Positions 37,890 through 47,311 of a DNA stretch of 64,000 nucleotides are shown piece by piece. The translations under genes and the position numbers were made by a program. Where the stretch lies: NCBI RefSeq assembly GCF_056746865.1, contig NZ_CM163382.1. The stretch is one strand, 5' to 3'. Below the pieces are notes generated by a model. That model had not been told where the DNA came from. It saw nothing but the letters and a program-made list of their open reading frames with translations, and did not search any database. Numbering within the stretch: the stretch's first letter is position 1; each line of letters opens with the position of its first letter.

Positions 37890-37981
37890 TGATAAACCTC
37901 ATTACAGATTTAAGGGTGAACAAATCCCTGCCATTGCTGGCATTTTTAATCCGTTGGTATGGTGTTAATATGGCTGGAGGG

Positions 37982-44470: not shown

Positions 44471-44575
44471 GCCAAATTAACAATCGGAACTTCGTGAAGA
44501 GAAAGCATAATCCAAATCTGAATAATTAAGTTCAGCACTGTAAATAAAATTTAATCCTTAACTGGAGGTATATCT

Positions 44576-44689
44576 ATGTCAAATACACAGAAAATTATTA
44601 ACACTGAAAAATATAACGAGTGGGTGAAAAATTCTCTGAGCAGATTTTTAAAATTACTGGCGACGAGAATGTGGCAAAAAATGAATTAG
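44576..44689 (+). CDS. hypothetical 37-aa ORF
   Basis: ATG 8 nt after GGAGG at the end of repeat motif copy A; an overlapping alternative frame exists. Confidence 0.25.
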   Translation: MSNTQKIINTEKYNEWVKNSLSRFLKLLATRMWQKMN

Positions 44690-44819
44690 AACCGTGGACA
44701 CCTGAAGGAAACGCACCAAATTATTGCTGGTGGGAGGTTGATCCGGTTGATGCTGCAAATGAAGCCATGAGTTACCACAACGATTAATGTCGGGAGGCCG
44801 CCCGAAAGGGCGGTAAGAA

Positions 44820-45038
44820 ATGACTACATTATTCAGAAAAGAATATCCGCAAAAAAGTAGGGCGACAGAATTTTTGTTTCTCATTCTGTTTATCGTATTG
44901 ATGATACCGATATCCCCTCTAATTTTTGTCTGGGCAATCGGGAAAATAATTGAGCCAGTTTCTGAATTGTATAACGACGTGGTGTGGGCGTCATTCAACA
45001 CACTGCACAATAAAATTAATCCGTATAAGGAAAACTGA
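44820..45038 (+). CDS. small hydrophobic protein
   Basis: 72-aa ORF preceded by SD-hairpin element copy 1; one predicted TM segment. Confidence 0.5.
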   Translation: MTTLFRKEYPQKSRATEFLFLILFIVLMIPISPLIFVWAIGKIIEPVSELYNDVVWASFNTLHNKINPYKEN

Positions 45039-45039
45039 T

Positions 45040-45243
45040 ATGGCAACTTTGACAAAAAAAGAACGGGCATGGTTGAACGAATTACAGGAAGTTCTTGATC
45101 GCTGTCCATCACCGAAAAAATTGGCTTTTACACCATTGGCGATAAAAGCATTTACCTGTATGACCTACGCCGCATGGATGAAATCATGGAGGCTCTTGAT
45201 AATCGTTCGTCGATGGATTGGTGTGTTGCTGTTCATGATATGA
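45040..45243 (+). CDS. hypothetical protein, possibly frameshifted
   Basis: MATLTKKERAWLNELQEVLDRCPSPKK...; a protein-like continuation exists in another frame to 45302. Confidence 0.3.
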   Translation: MATLTKKERAWLNELQEVLDRCPSPKKLAFTPLAIKAFTCMTYAAWMKSWRLLIIVRRWIGVLLFMI

Positions 45244-45433
45244 ATGCAGGGTTTGATGAAAAGATTTTGTTCCCCTCATCAGTTGAAAGCACTGCGGGTT
45301 AAGGAGTAACACATGACCACTATTACCAAAGAACGTATTGAATTGTTCATTAAATTTTCAGGAGGCGGTACTGTGAGTGAAATTAGCTATCAGGCTTCAA
45401 TTACCGCTGGCATTCGCATCAAAGGAGAGGAGC

Positions 45434-45790
45434 ATGGAAATAAAACCAGAGGATGAGTTAAGCAATATCGTTTTATTTCCGGTAAAAGAGGATGACCCTC
45501 GTAATCAGGTTAATTTTCTTTATGAGCCATCGGAAAGACCATATTGTCATCACGCCTCTGTCCGGGTTGACGAAAAAGAGCGTCAGGTCCGCTGTAAAAT
45601 CTGCGGTGCAGTTGTGGAACCATTTGACTGGATGCTCTCTGTGGCGAAAAGAGAAACCAGACTGGCAGATGATGTAAGGCTCTTGCGTCAGGAGGAGCGG
45701 GAAAGGCGAAAAAATATAGAAAAGCTAATTCAGATTGAGCGTAACGCGAAAGCGCGGATACGCAGGGCGACAAAATCCAGAACTGAATAA
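45434..45790 (+). CDS. hypothetical Cys/His-containing protein
   Basis: ATG after AAGGAGAGGAG; product has CHH...C..C cluster (putative zinc site). Confidence 0.5.
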   Translation: MEIKPEDELSNIVLFPVKEDDPRNQVNFLYEPSERPYCHHASVRVDEKERQVRCKICGAVVEPFDWMLSVAKRETRLADDVRLLRQEERERRKNIEKLIQIERNAKARIRRATKSRTE

Positions 45791-45883
45791 TTAAATTTAG
45801 CTCTGTTAAAAATTTAATCCTTAACCGGAGGGATTTCTGCACCCTCAGAACATCAGGAGGCCGCCCGAAAGGGCGGTAGTTAA

Positions 45884-46066
45884 ATGCGAAAGTTTAAAAT
45901 AATTATTGAAACGGGAATAGCCGGTGGAGATTTCGAGGATGAATTCGAAGTGGATGATGATGCGACGCCTGATGAAATACATGACGAAGCAAAAGATATT
46001 TTCTTTAACTACTGCAATTACTCATATCACGAAATAAAAGACGAAGAGGAAGAACAAAATGGCTGA
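45884..46066 (+). CDS. small acidic protein
   Basis: 60-aa ORF preceded by SD-hairpin element copy 2. Confidence 0.5.
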   Translation: MRKFKIIIETGIAGGDFEDEFEVDDDATPDEIHDEAKDIFFNYCNYSYHEIKDEEEEQNG

Positions 46067-46235
46067 TTTTGGTTCAACTAAATACAACGTCGGTTTTGAA
46101 GAATGGCATGAACTGTTAATGGACTATGCAGAGTTACGTGGTGGCAGTGCTGCTGATGCTGAAGCATGGCGTGATGATTATGAAGCAGGAAAAACTCCGG
46201 TCGAAGCATATTGTGATGAGTGGGGCGATGAATGA
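46059..46235 (+). CDS. hypothetical 58-aa protein
   Basis: Manual translation MADFGSTKYNVGFEEWHELLMDYAELRGGSAADAEAWRDDYEAGKTPVEAYCDEWGDE; start overlaps the preceding stop. Confidence 0.3.
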   Translation: MADFGSTKYNVGFEEWHELLMDYAELRGGSAADAEAWRDDYEAGKTPVEAYCDEWGDE

Positions 46236-46717
46236 GCGAGGTTAATTATCAGGAAGGGCATGAAACGGCGGGGCAAGCAAAAACAGTGGCATGGCGATAT
46301 CGCTACGTGAAAAAAAGGCGTTACGGACTTTCAGGGGAAGTAGTGGTCTGGTGACTGGAAATATGTACCGAAAAAAGAGGATTGTAACGACAGGCCGAAC
46401 TATGAAATTCAGGCCTTATTCACTGCCCCGCCAGTCCCGGTTACATCAGAAGAACTGGTTAAAGCTGTGCACTTTTATGAACAACTAAAATGCGAAAATC
46501 CACCAGCATCCGGAAACCTGATTACAGATTCCCAGATAAGGCAATGAGCTACCTGGCGCAGAACGGGCTGATAAGTATGGGGAATGTTTTACGATGAATA
46601 TTTAGACTAAAGAGTTTGTAACGCTATGTAAGTGATTTTTTCTGGTTTAGATATTTATATGTCCGGCTAAATTGAGGTGTGTTTAAATGTTATTGCACAT
46701 TGATTGTAGGGGGAATA

Positions 46718-46897
46718 ATGAAAAACGCATTGCAGTTTTTGTTTGTTGCGTTCTGGTTGTTCGCATCATGTATGCCCATCATCTTCACAGCAAGGTATAT
46801 GGAAAAAGTTGATGTTTTGATATTAATGTTTGGACATATAAATGCCCTTTTTTTAGGGGTGTTCATGGCGGTCATGTGCATTGAATACTGGCGGTAA
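46718..46897 (+). CDS. small membrane protein (AT-rich gene)
   Basis: ATG after AGGGGGAATA; product MKNALQFLFVAFWLFASCMPIIF... with two hydrophobic segments. Confidence 0.4.
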   Translation: MKNALQFLFVAFWLFASCMPIIFTARYMEKVDVLILMFGHINALFLGVFMAVMCIEYWR

Positions 46898-47155: not shown

Positions 47156-47311
47156 ATGAAGCAGCAAAAGGCGATGTTAATCGCCCTGATCGTCATCTGT
47201 TTAACCGTCATAGTGACGGCACTGGTAACGAGGAAAGACCTCTGCGAGGTACGAATCCGAACCGGCCAGACGGAGGTCGCTGTCTTCACAGCTTACGAAC
47301 CTGAGGAGTAA
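47156..47311 (+). CDS. hok: Hok/Gef-family type I toxin (51 aa)
   Basis: MKQQKAMLIALIVICLTVIVTALVTRKDLCEVRIRTGQTEVAVFTAYEPEE matches the recalled HokD/RelF sequence; short overlapping upstream ORF 47100-47159 (mok-like); 3' stem-loop 47319-47340. Confidence 0.8.
   Translation: MKQQKAMLIALIVICLTVIVTALVTRKDLCEVRIRTGQTEVAVFTAYEPEE

What the first reader, a model, noticed from the sequence alone, without database searches (positions are those of the whole stretch)
45040..46488. Possible frameshifts or overlapping coding among small nin-region ORFs
At 45040-45302 and again at 46232-46488 a short ATG-initiated ORF is followed by a longer protein-like frame lacking its own start (for example ...KSIYLYDLRRMDEIMEALDNRSS... 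and ...DWKYVPKKEDCNDRPNYEIQALF...). The pattern suggests decayed or frameshifted genes in this prophage's nin region, consistent with a partly cryptic element.
Basis: seen in the sequence. Interest (0 to 1): 0.25.

Follow-up and report, generated by a model that had tools for sequence, protein, structure and literature searches.

The report
Frameshifted pseudogenes in an E. coli prophage
Small accessory genes of unknown function in an E. coli prophage have been broken by one-base slips in short runs of A (one also by a stop codon and deletions), which is ordinary prophage decay that the public annotation already flags.

Summary
The window is E. coli chromosome with a Rac/Qin-like lambdoid prophage beside potC.

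- **Gene at 45040-45302:** it has lost one A from an A7 tract, now A6 at 45115-45120. Putting the A back gives an 87-aa protein (WP_000224233.1, phrog_1714) with no nucleotide differences from the intact gene. The broken allele is in 3 of 5,426 complete E. coli genomes. The exact intact sequence is in at least 398 records.
- **Gene starting at 46232:** it runs to 46597, not 46488, and is an older wreck. It has an extra A (A7 at 46310-46316, A6 in intact copies), an in-frame TAG at 46341-46343, and two internal deletions. This allele sits in about 1,160 E. coli genomes, with the tract varying A6, A7 and A8, and NCBI's PGAP annotation marked it a pseudogene in all nine RefSeq records inspected.
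44576-44787, A5 where intact copies have A6.

Sequencing error is unlikely. Three independent assemblies from Egypt, China and Laos share the alleles, and no other frameshifted gene is annotated across the 64 kb. Programmed recoding is unsupported: there is no in-phase slippery heptamer, no stimulatory RNA structure, and the shifted form is not conserved. The finding is ordinary, already annotated, and of low interest.

The parts
45040..45302 (+). Pseudogene of an 87-aa phage protein of unknown function (WP_000224233.1, phrog_1714). The 5' frame 45040-45243 encodes 67 aa, of which the first 27 (MATLTKKERAWLNELQEVLDRCPSPKK) match the intact protein. The authentic C-terminal frame is open over 45099-45302.
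   Evidence: PGAP 'frameshifted' in identical RefSeq sequence. Adding one A restores 100% identity to the intact protein with 0 nt differences. Full-length match 1-87/87 to phrog_1714, E = 9.5e-51.
45115..45120 (+). A6 tract where the frameshift lies. Intact alleles have A7 (a one-base deletion).
   Evidence: Alignment to FDAARGOS_1059. The A6 allele is exact in 3 genomes and the A7 allele is exact in 398 records.
46232..46597 (+). Multiply damaged pseudogene of a phrog_660-family phage protein. Intact relatives are 119-155 aa, for example WP_001556926.1 (129 aa) in ATCC 25922.
   Evidence: PGAP 'frameshifted; internal stop' in all nine RefSeq records inspected: the four that cover the whole block, one listed only, and the four fetched for gene 3 alone. 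Alignments. phrog_660 E = 6.8e-45 for the intact form.
46310..46316 (+). A7 tract in gene 3. Intact alleles have A6. Other copies of the decayed allele have A6 or A8.
46341..46343 (+). In-frame TAG stop in the authentic reading frame of gene 3. The intact ATCC 25922 allele has CCG here.
   Evidence: Present in all seven copies of this allele that were aligned (the window and loci L002, L005, L008-L011).
46490..46517 (+). Deletion junctions inside gene 3. About 90 bp are missing near 46490-46493 relative to ATCC 25922, between the imperfect direct repeats AATCCGCCAG and AATCCACCAG. A further 57 bp are missing at 46510/46511 relative to the E. coli 042 allele (about 61 bp at 46516/46517 relative to ATCC 25922).
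46514..46597 (+). Remnant (...RKPDYRFPDKAMSYLAQNGLISMGNVLR*) of a 40-codon ORF that follows gene 3 in ATCC 25922 (L007:3067-3189). That ORF matches the C-terminal end of phrog_660.
44576..44787 (+). It is a 70-aa phage protein (WP_000072553.1, phrog_4659) with an A5 tract at 44627-44631 where intact copies have A6.
   Evidence: PGAP 'frameshifted'. Alignment. Adding one A gives 100% identity to the intact protein. The allele is exact in 10 records, including O55:H7 DEC5B, where gene 2 is intact.

Best explanation
These are true pseudogenes. They are small accessory genes of unknown function in the early-right (nin-equivalent) region of a Rac/Qin-like lambdoid prophage beside potC, inactivated by ordinary mutation.

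- **Gene 2 (45040-45302)** lost one A from an A7 tract. **Gene 1 (44576-44787)** lost one A from an A6 tract. This is the classic product of slipped-strand mispairing at homopolymers during replication. The gene 2 event is recent: it has no other difference from the intact allele and is confined to one prophage lineage.
- **Gene 3 (46232-46597)** is an old pseudogene allele. It has gained an A in its tract and carries a TAG nonsense codon and two internal deletions, one between short direct repeats. It has spread vertically and by recombination to roughly a fifth of complete E. coli genomes.

Shown here: the lesions, their positions, their population frequencies, and their presence in independent assemblies. 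Inferred: the mutational mechanism (replication slippage), relaxed selection on these genes in a lysogen, and the consequence that only truncated products are made (27 native residues plus a 40-residue out-of-frame tail for gene 2, and 28 native residues plus a 12-residue tail for gene 3).
For: 1. **Intact single-ORF homologues exist.** The window differs from them by one A in an A tract at 44626/27 and at 45114/15. Repaired translations equal WP_000072553.1 and WP_000224233.1 exactly.
2. **The intact forms are full-length members of phage protein families.** phrog_4659 matches 1-70/70, phrog_1714 matches 1-87/87, and phrog_660 also matches. Homologous DNA of gene 2 in isolated phages is one base longer than the window in 6 of 7 listed matches (H46-H54).
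3. **The gene 2 broken allele is rare.** It is in 3 of 5,426 genomes, against at least 398 records with the exact intact sequence.
4. **Independent isolates share the lesions.** The same prophage at the same potC site, with all three pseudogenes, is found in isolates from Egypt, China and Laos. They differ from the window and from each other by SNPs, small indels and an IS4 insertion.
5. **The genome is not noisy.** PGAP reports no other frameshifted CDS across the 64 kb, including about 32 kb of core genes. The window has 282 A/T runs of 5 to 8 bases (327 homopolymer runs of 5 or more in all).
6. **Gene 3 carries several independent lesions.** These are the tract indel, TAG, and deletions of 57 to about 90 bp. 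PGAP called it a pseudogene in all nine RefSeq records inspected.
7. **Other decay marks are present in the prophage.** There is an IS3 insertion and a truncated YdfR-family gene.
Against: - All three tract changes lie in homopolymers, which is also where long-read consensus errors fall. I could not see read data or the sequencing platforms.
- The functions of the intact genes are unknown: Pfam, NCBIfam and PDB sequence searches found nothing. So loss of function cannot be tied to a phenotype.
- On the A6 tract of gene 2, a -1 slip of the P-site Lys-tRNA, or one extra A added by RNA polymerase, would recreate the exact wild-type protein. A low level of leaky expression therefore cannot be excluded by sequence alone.
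Confidence: 0.93

Rival explanations
1. The single-A deletions at 44627-31 and 45115-20 are homopolymer errors of long-read sequencing or assembly, and the genes are really intact in the cell.
For: Both window-specific lesions are one-base deletions in A tracts of 6-7, the typical error type of PacBio and Nanopore consensus. The closest genomes are finished long-read-style assemblies.
Against: - The identical alleles occur in three separately deposited assemblies from three countries, plus the window itself. These differ from one another elsewhere.
- The alleles co-segregate with three linked SNPs that distinguish this lineage.
- About 400-660 other genomes with the gene do not show the deletion.
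- No other frameshifted CDS is annotated in 64 kb despite 282 A/T runs of 5 to 8 bases.
- The gene 1 allele is also found in unrelated strains such as O55:H7 DEC5B.
- The gene 3 lesions (TAG, deletions) are not homopolymer errors at all.
Confidence: 0.03
2. The A tracts are functional recoding or switching sites. Under this view the downstream frames are expressed, and the arrangement is maintained, by a programmed -1 ribosomal frameshift, by transcriptional slippage, or by phase variation through tract-length change.
For: - A -1 re-pairing of Lys-tRNA on AAA AAA, or one extra A in the mRNA, would yield exactly the wild-type gene 2 protein (read directly from the sequence).
- Three neighbouring genes all have A-tract indels.
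- The gene 3 tract is polymorphic among genomes: A6, A7 and A8.
Against: - The zero-frame context is CCG AAA AAA TTG, so there is no in-phase X XXY YYZ heptamer.
- There is no Shine-Dalgarno-like stimulator upstream (read from sequence).
- The 70 nt downstream fold no better than shuffled controls, with z = -0.33 and +0.52.
- The shifted arrangement of gene 2 is found in 3 of about 665 genomes carrying the gene, so it is not conserved.
- Tracts of 5-7 A are far shorter than those known to give efficient transcriptional slippage or phase variation (background knowledge).
- For gene 3, no tract length gives an open frame, because TAG 46341-43 and the deletions lie downstream in the authentic frame.
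Confidence: 0.03
3. The short ATG-initiated ORFs (67 aa at 45040-45243 and 40 aa at 46232-46354) are the complete genes. The downstream protein-like frames are then either non-coding or separate overlapping genes.
For: Each short ORF has an ATG placed next to the upstream stop codon, as expected for translationally coupled phage genes.
Against: - Homologues encode the N-terminal and C-terminal parts as one continuous ORF.
- The out-of-frame tails (LAFTPLAIKAFTCMTYAAWMKSW... and RRYGLSGEVVVW) do not occur in any intact homologue or repaired translation.
- The downstream frames lack start codons at their 5' ends.
Confidence: 0.01

Closest known systems
Frameshift and nonsense pseudogenes of defective lambdoid prophages in E. 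coli (for example the K-12 cryptic prophages Rac and Qin and the O157 prophage pool), as routinely flagged by NCBI PGAP
   Same: - Single-base indels in homopolymers, nonsense codons, short deletions and IS insertions in non-essential prophage genes.
- The same intervals are already labelled 'frameshifted' or 'frameshifted; internal stop' in RefSeq.
- The prophage shares ydfB, ydfC, dicB, hokD, a YdaT-family gene and DUF977 and DUF968 genes with the K-12 Qin and Rac prophages.
   Different: Nothing of substance. Only the particular genes affected (phrog_4659, phrog_1714, phrog_660, all of unknown function) and the particular alleles differ.
Programmed -1 ribosomal frameshifting (dnaX A AAA AAG; IS3-family transposases; lambda G/GT)
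   Same: The break sits in a Lys-codon A run. A true example, the IS3 transposase annotated 'programmed frameshift', lies in the same window at 50296-51524.
   Different: There is no in-phase slippery heptamer, no stimulatory structure and no upstream SD. The shifted arrangement is a rare derived allele rather than the conserved state.
Homopolymer-tract phase variation (contingency loci) and transcriptional-slippage rescue at poly(A) tracts
   Same: The length of the gene 3 A tract varies (A6, A7, A8) among E. coli genomes.
   Different: The tracts are short (5-8). In gene 3, the only tract seen to vary, no tract length restores an open reading frame, because of the downstream TAG and deletions. 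The variation looks like neutral drift in a dead gene.

Membership tests
Frameshift pseudogene of a phage gene | Full-length intact homologues exist as one continuous ORF | tested here: met
   - Gene 2: WP_000224233.1, 87 aa.
- Gene 1: WP_000072553.1, 70 aa.
- Gene 3: WP_001556926.1, 129 aa, plus phage proteins of 119 and 155 aa.
- Full-length PHROG matches for the intact forms of genes 1 and 2; the intact gene 3 form matches the central part of phrog_660.
Frameshift pseudogene of a phage gene | A defined indel or stop relative to the intact form breaks the frame, and reverting it restores the protein | tested here: met
   Adding one A restores genes 1 and 2 to 100% protein identity. For gene 3, removing one A still leaves TAG 46341-43 and the deletions.
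Frameshift pseudogene of a phage gene | The lesion is in the DNA of the organism, not a sequencing artefact | tested here: met
   The same alleles occur in three independent RefSeq assemblies plus the window, which differ elsewhere. No other frameshifted CDS is annotated in 64 kb. Read-level confirmation is not possible with these tools.
Frameshift pseudogene of a phage gene | No full-length product is made | not testable with these tools
   This needs proteomics or reporter fusions. The sequence predicts truncated products only.
Programmed -1 ribosomal frameshift site | Slippery heptamer X XXY YYZ in phase with the zero frame | tested here: not met
   The zero frame reads CCG AAA AAA TTG at 45112-45123. 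Gene 3 needs a +1 or -2 shift and has no such motif.
Programmed -1 ribosomal frameshift site | Stimulatory downstream RNA structure or upstream SD-like element | tested here: not met
   Downstream 70 nt fold with z = -0.33 and +0.52 against shuffles. There is no GGAGG-like element within 20 nt upstream.
Programmed -1 ribosomal frameshift site | The two-frame arrangement is conserved among homologues | tested here: not met
   Gene 2 is shifted in 3 genomes, against at least 398 exact intact copies.
Phase-variable homopolymer (contingency) locus | At least one tract length gives an intact ORF (an ON state), and closely related strains switch between states | tested here: not met
   For gene 3, the A6, A7 and A8 copies of this allele all carry the TAG, and PGAP marked all nine RefSeq records inspected as pseudogenes. 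For gene 2, the OFF state is confined to one lineage, and the tract is only 6-7 nt.

The most novel reading that the evidence does not exclude
The A-tract lesions might not be fully inactivating. On the A6 tract of gene 2, a -1 slip of the P-site Lys-tRNA, or a one-A transcriptional insertion, would regenerate the exact 87-aa wild-type protein. A-rich tracts in these AT-rich prophage accessory genes could then act as leaky attenuators or slow ON/OFF switches of early-operon accessory functions. The recurrence of A-tract indels in three neighbouring genes and the A6/A7/A8 polymorphism of gene 3 across about 1,100 genomes are what keep this reading open.
Probability: 0.03. Interest if true: 0.35.

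Novelty: already known. Interest (0 to 1): 0.06.

Why it matters
It matters little beyond correct annotation. These intervals should be treated as pseudogenes, not as novel overlapping or recoded genes, and the prophage should be scored as partly decayed. Two minor points of use follow. The gene 2 deletion is a clean lineage marker for one potC-integrated prophage found in food and poultry isolates from three countries. The gene 3 allele shows how a dead gene can persist and spread in about a fifth of complete E. coli genomes, and even in phages isolated as virions.

Tried and rejected
- **Sequencing error.** Rejected because the alleles recur in independent assemblies and the 64 kb is otherwise free of frameshifts.
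- **Programmed frameshift or slippage.** Rejected after checking codon phase, RNA folding and conservation.
- **Function of the intact proteins.** Pfam, NCBIfam and PDB sequence searches gave nothing, and PHROGs gave only 'unknown function' families.
- **Sequencing platform of CFSAN061770.** A literature search for the strain found only unrelated papers.
- **Origin of the window.** I first assumed the window was CFSAN061770 itself. A whole-window comparison showed it lacks that strain's IS4 insertion and differs by 3 SNPs, so it is a close relative.
- **Hairpin pattern search.** A degenerate pattern search for the SD-hairpin-ATG motif failed because I set the stem length wrong, and I did not repeat it.
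- **Large searches not run.** I did not run the large protein-database or structure-prediction jobs. The verdict does not depend on them.

Full report
**What the window is.**
The 2-kb stretch around the finding is 100% identical to three complete E. coli chromosomes: CFSAN061770 (raw-milk cheese, Egypt), EC31 (meat duck, China) and EF5-18-41 (chicken, Laos).

Over its whole length the window is not any of them:
- It lacks the IS4 insertion of CFSAN061770 and differs from that strain by 3 SNPs.
- It differs from EC31 by 6 SNPs and an 8-bp gap, and from EF5-18-41 by 1 SNP and a 15-bp gap.

So the window is a fourth close relative.

About half the window is core chromosome, from fabF to potC. The rest is a lambdoid prophage beside potC with Rac/Qin-like genes: integrase, exonuclease, dicB, ydfB and ydfC, a CI/Cro pair, a YdaT-family gene, an HTH replication-region protein (O-like by position), a DnaC-like ATPase, DUF1627, DUF977, a block of small genes, hokD, DUF968, RusA, DUF1133, the lysis genes and the head genes.

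The finding lies in the block of small genes between the replication genes and hokD/RusA. That is the positional equivalent of lambda's nin region.

**Checking the observation.**
Both descriptions are accurate.

At 45040 an ATG opens a frame that reads MATLTKKERAWLNELQEVLDRCPSPKK and then runs on as 40 unrelated residues to TGA 45241-45243. The protein-like frame KIGFYTIGDKSIYLYDLRRMDEIMEALDNRSS... is open only from 45099 and ends at 45302.

At 46232 an ATG opens a 40-codon ORF ending at TGA 46352-46354. The frame WSGDWKYVPKKEDCNDRPNYEIQALF... opens at 46344, right after a TAG, and runs to 46547.

**Gene 2 (45040-45302).**
Genomes 99.7-99.8% identical over the block have two extra bases. Alignment to FDAARGOS_1059 places them as one A at 44626/27 (A5 against A6) and one A at 45114/15 (A6 against A7). 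There are only three SNPs in the block besides.

In FDAARGOS_1059, ATCC 25922 and O55:H7 DEC5B the second gene is an uninterrupted 264-nt CDS, WP_000224233.1. Re-inserting one A into the window sequence gives that protein exactly, with 0 nucleotide differences. The intact protein matches phrog_1714 end to end (1-87/87, E = 9.5e-51). DNA matches to gene 2 in isolated phages are one base longer than the window in six of the seven matches listed (H46-H54).

A 71-nt probe carrying the A6 allele is exact in only 3 of 5,426 complete E. coli genomes. The A7 version is exact in 398 records. This is a recent, lineage-specific, one-base deletion.

The same logic applies. The window has A5 at 44627-44631 where intact copies have A6. 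The repaired translation is identical to WP_000072553.1 (70 aa, phrog_4659 1-70/70).

This allele is exact in 10 records, including unrelated strains such as O55:H7 DEC5B. There PGAP also calls it frameshifted, while gene 2 next to it is intact.

**Gene 3 (46232-46597).**
This one is broken even in the genomes where genes 1 and 2 are intact.

An intact relative is found in ATCC 25922 (WP_001556926.1, 129 aa). Further intact relatives are in phages vB_EcoS-689R5 (119 aa) and mEp460_4F5 (155 aa). The family is phrog_660.

Against these, the window allele has:
- one extra A in the tract (A7 at 46310-46316 against A6);
- TAG at 46341-46343 where the intact gene has CCG;
- about 90 bp missing near 46490-46493, between the imperfect direct repeats AATCCGCCAG and AATCCACCAG;
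- a further 57 bp missing at 46510/11 relative to the E. coli 042 allele, or about 61 bp relative to ATCC 25922.

The last 84 nt are the remnant of a 40-codon ORF that follows the gene in ATCC 25922. That ORF matches the C-terminal end of phrog_660.

An 81-nt probe of this allele matches about 1,160 genomes at 95% identity or better, and 60 exactly. The six copies I fetched all carry the TAG, but their tracts are A6 (042, Res13; MB19 has A6 and has also lost the following G), A7 (FDAARGOS_1059) or A8 (JJ2434, phage vB_EcoS-640R1). PGAP marked the gene 'frameshifted; internal stop' in all nine RefSeq records I inspected.

The intact-type allele is exact in 165 records, and 258 more are within 95-99%. 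Gene 3 is therefore an old, widely distributed pseudogene whose A tract now drifts in length.

**Real mutation or sequencing error?**
Four observations argue for real mutations:
- The alleles are shared by three separately deposited assemblies from three countries and by the window. All of these differ from each other elsewhere: SNPs, 8- and 15-bp indels, an IS4 present in only one of them, and different terminase and lysis protein accessions.
- The indels co-segregate with three SNPs that mark the lineage.
- Hundreds of other assemblies of the same gene show the intact tract.
- PGAP flags no other frameshifted CDS across the 64 kb, although the window has 282 A/T runs of 5 to 8 bases (327 homopolymer runs of 5 or more in all).

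I could not inspect reads.

**Recoding?**
A -1 re-pairing of Lys-tRNA on the AAA AAA of gene 2, or one extra A in the transcript, would recreate the exact wild-type protein, so I tested the idea:
- The zero frame is CCG AAA AAA TTG, which gives no in-phase X XXY YYZ heptamer.
- There is no SD-like element upstream.
- The 70 nt downstream of either tract fold no better than shuffled sequence, with z = -0.33 and +0.52.
- The shifted arrangement is a rare derived state.
- For gene 3 no tract length yields an open frame.

Efficient transcriptional slippage and phase variation are known, from the literature as I recall it, for tracts of about 8-9 or more. The tracts here are 5-7 (up to 8 for gene 3 in other genomes). 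I rate recoding or switching at about 3%.

**Mechanism.**
The best explanation is plain mutational decay. Replication slippage in short A tracts gave ±1 indels. A nonsense change and repeat-mediated deletions followed in the older lesion. All of these fell in accessory early genes that a lysogen does not need.

The prophage has other decay marks: an IS3 between the DUF1133 gene and the lysis cassette (50296-51524), and a truncated YdfR-family gene (55336-55671).

The lesions, their frequencies and their independence from sequencing are shown here. The slippage mechanism and the relaxed selection are inferred from established knowledge. What the intact proteins do remains unknown: Pfam, NCBIfam and PDB sequence searches found nothing, and the PHROG families are of 'unknown function'.

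**Comparison with what is known, and novelty.**
This is the ordinary state of E. coli lambdoid prophages. The exact intervals are already annotated as pseudogenes in RefSeq. De Paepe et al. 2014 (PMC3945230, found; title and abstract only) report that temperate phages acquire DNA from defective prophages by relaxed homologous recombination. That fits the finding that phage isolates such as vB_EcoS-640R1 carry the dead gene 3 allele.

**Seen in passing.**
- A 23-nt element, GGAGG-CCGCCC-GAAA-GGGCGG-TA, occurs twice (44793-44815 and 45856-45878), against none expected by chance. In both copies it places a strong Shine-Dalgarno sequence immediately 5' of a stable GAAA-tetraloop hairpin, and the ATG follows 6-7 nt after the stem (genes at 44820 and 45884). 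This arrangement resembles, from memory, the hairpin-bridged 'split' ribosome-binding sites of T4 genes 38 and 25.
- In phage ArgO145 the same element joins different gene pairs, and one copy has a C-to-T change that keeps the stem as a G-U pair. It therefore also looks like a module junction for mosaic recombination.
- A second repeat of about 70 nt (44506-44575 and 45771-45838, 81-90% identical) includes the 3' end of the 118-aa gene in one copy and a remnant of such an end in the other.

Noticed in passing
The window has an A5 tract at 44627-44631 where intact WP_000072553.1 (70 aa, phrog_4659) has A6. The same allele is present in 10 E. coli records, including O55:H7 DEC5B.
   Followed up: yes
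window 44793-44822 and 45856-45886: The exact 23-nt repeat GGAGGCCGCCCGAAAGGGCGGTA occurs twice. In each copy a Shine-Dalgarno sequence sits directly 5' of a GC hairpin with a GAAA tetraloop, and the ATG of the DUF4014 gene or the DUF7167 gene lies 6-7 nt after the stem. This may be a hairpin-bridged ('split') ribosome-binding site. In phage ArgO145 the same element links different gene pairs, and one copy carries a stem change that preserves pairing as G-U.
   Followed up: partly
window 44506-44575 and 45771-45838: A roughly 70-nt direct repeat, 81-90% identical. It spans the 3' end of the 118-aa zinc-ribbon gene in one copy and a remnant of such an end in the other, plus the following AT-rich spacer and SD. 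It is probably a module-boundary sequence or recombination scar.
   Followed up: partly
L012 (phage ArgO145, NC_049918.1 5478-8076) compared with window 44560-46250: The same small genes (gene 1, DUF7167, the 58-aa ORF, DUF4014) occur in Stx phages next to ead/Ea22-like and HNH genes near the left end of the genome, and in a different order. So this gene block moves between early-left and nin-equivalent regions.
   Followed up: partly
window 37928-37939; 50296-51524; 55336-55671: The window lacks the IS4 insertion that CFSAN061770 has at 37928-37939. So the window comes from a different but nearly identical strain. An IS3 element with an annotated programmed frameshift and a truncated YdfR-family gene lie inside the prophage and are shared by all three close relatives.
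   Followed up: yes
window 46709-46897 (+): A 62-codon hydrophobic ORF (MKNALQFLFVAFWLFASCMPIIF...) with a GGGGGA SD-like sequence lies upstream of hokD. PGAP does not annotate it. It is conserved with one amino-acid change in ATCC 25922, and has no Pfam or PHROG match. It may be an unannotated small membrane protein.
   Followed up: partly
L007:3067-3189 (ATCC 25922); remnant at window 46514-46597: An unannotated 40-codon ORF starts 3 nt after the stop of the intact gene 3. It matches the C-terminal end (154-193/193) of the same family, phrog_660. This suggests that even the 'intact' 129-aa gene derives from a longer ancestor that was split.
   Followed up: partly
L005 (phage vB_EcoS-640R1, ON470612.1) 2380-2637: Phage isolates 640R1 and 813R8 carry the dead gene 3 allele with an A8 tract. 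In 640R1 it is annotated as an 85-aa 'hypothetical protein', which is an out-of-frame artefact. On the opposite strand nearby, a CDS is annotated 'hornerin', which is probably spurious.
   Followed up: partly
window 47156-47311: A hokD (type I toxin) gene lies immediately downstream of the decayed block, followed by DUF968 and RusA genes, as in K-12 Qin.
   Followed up: no
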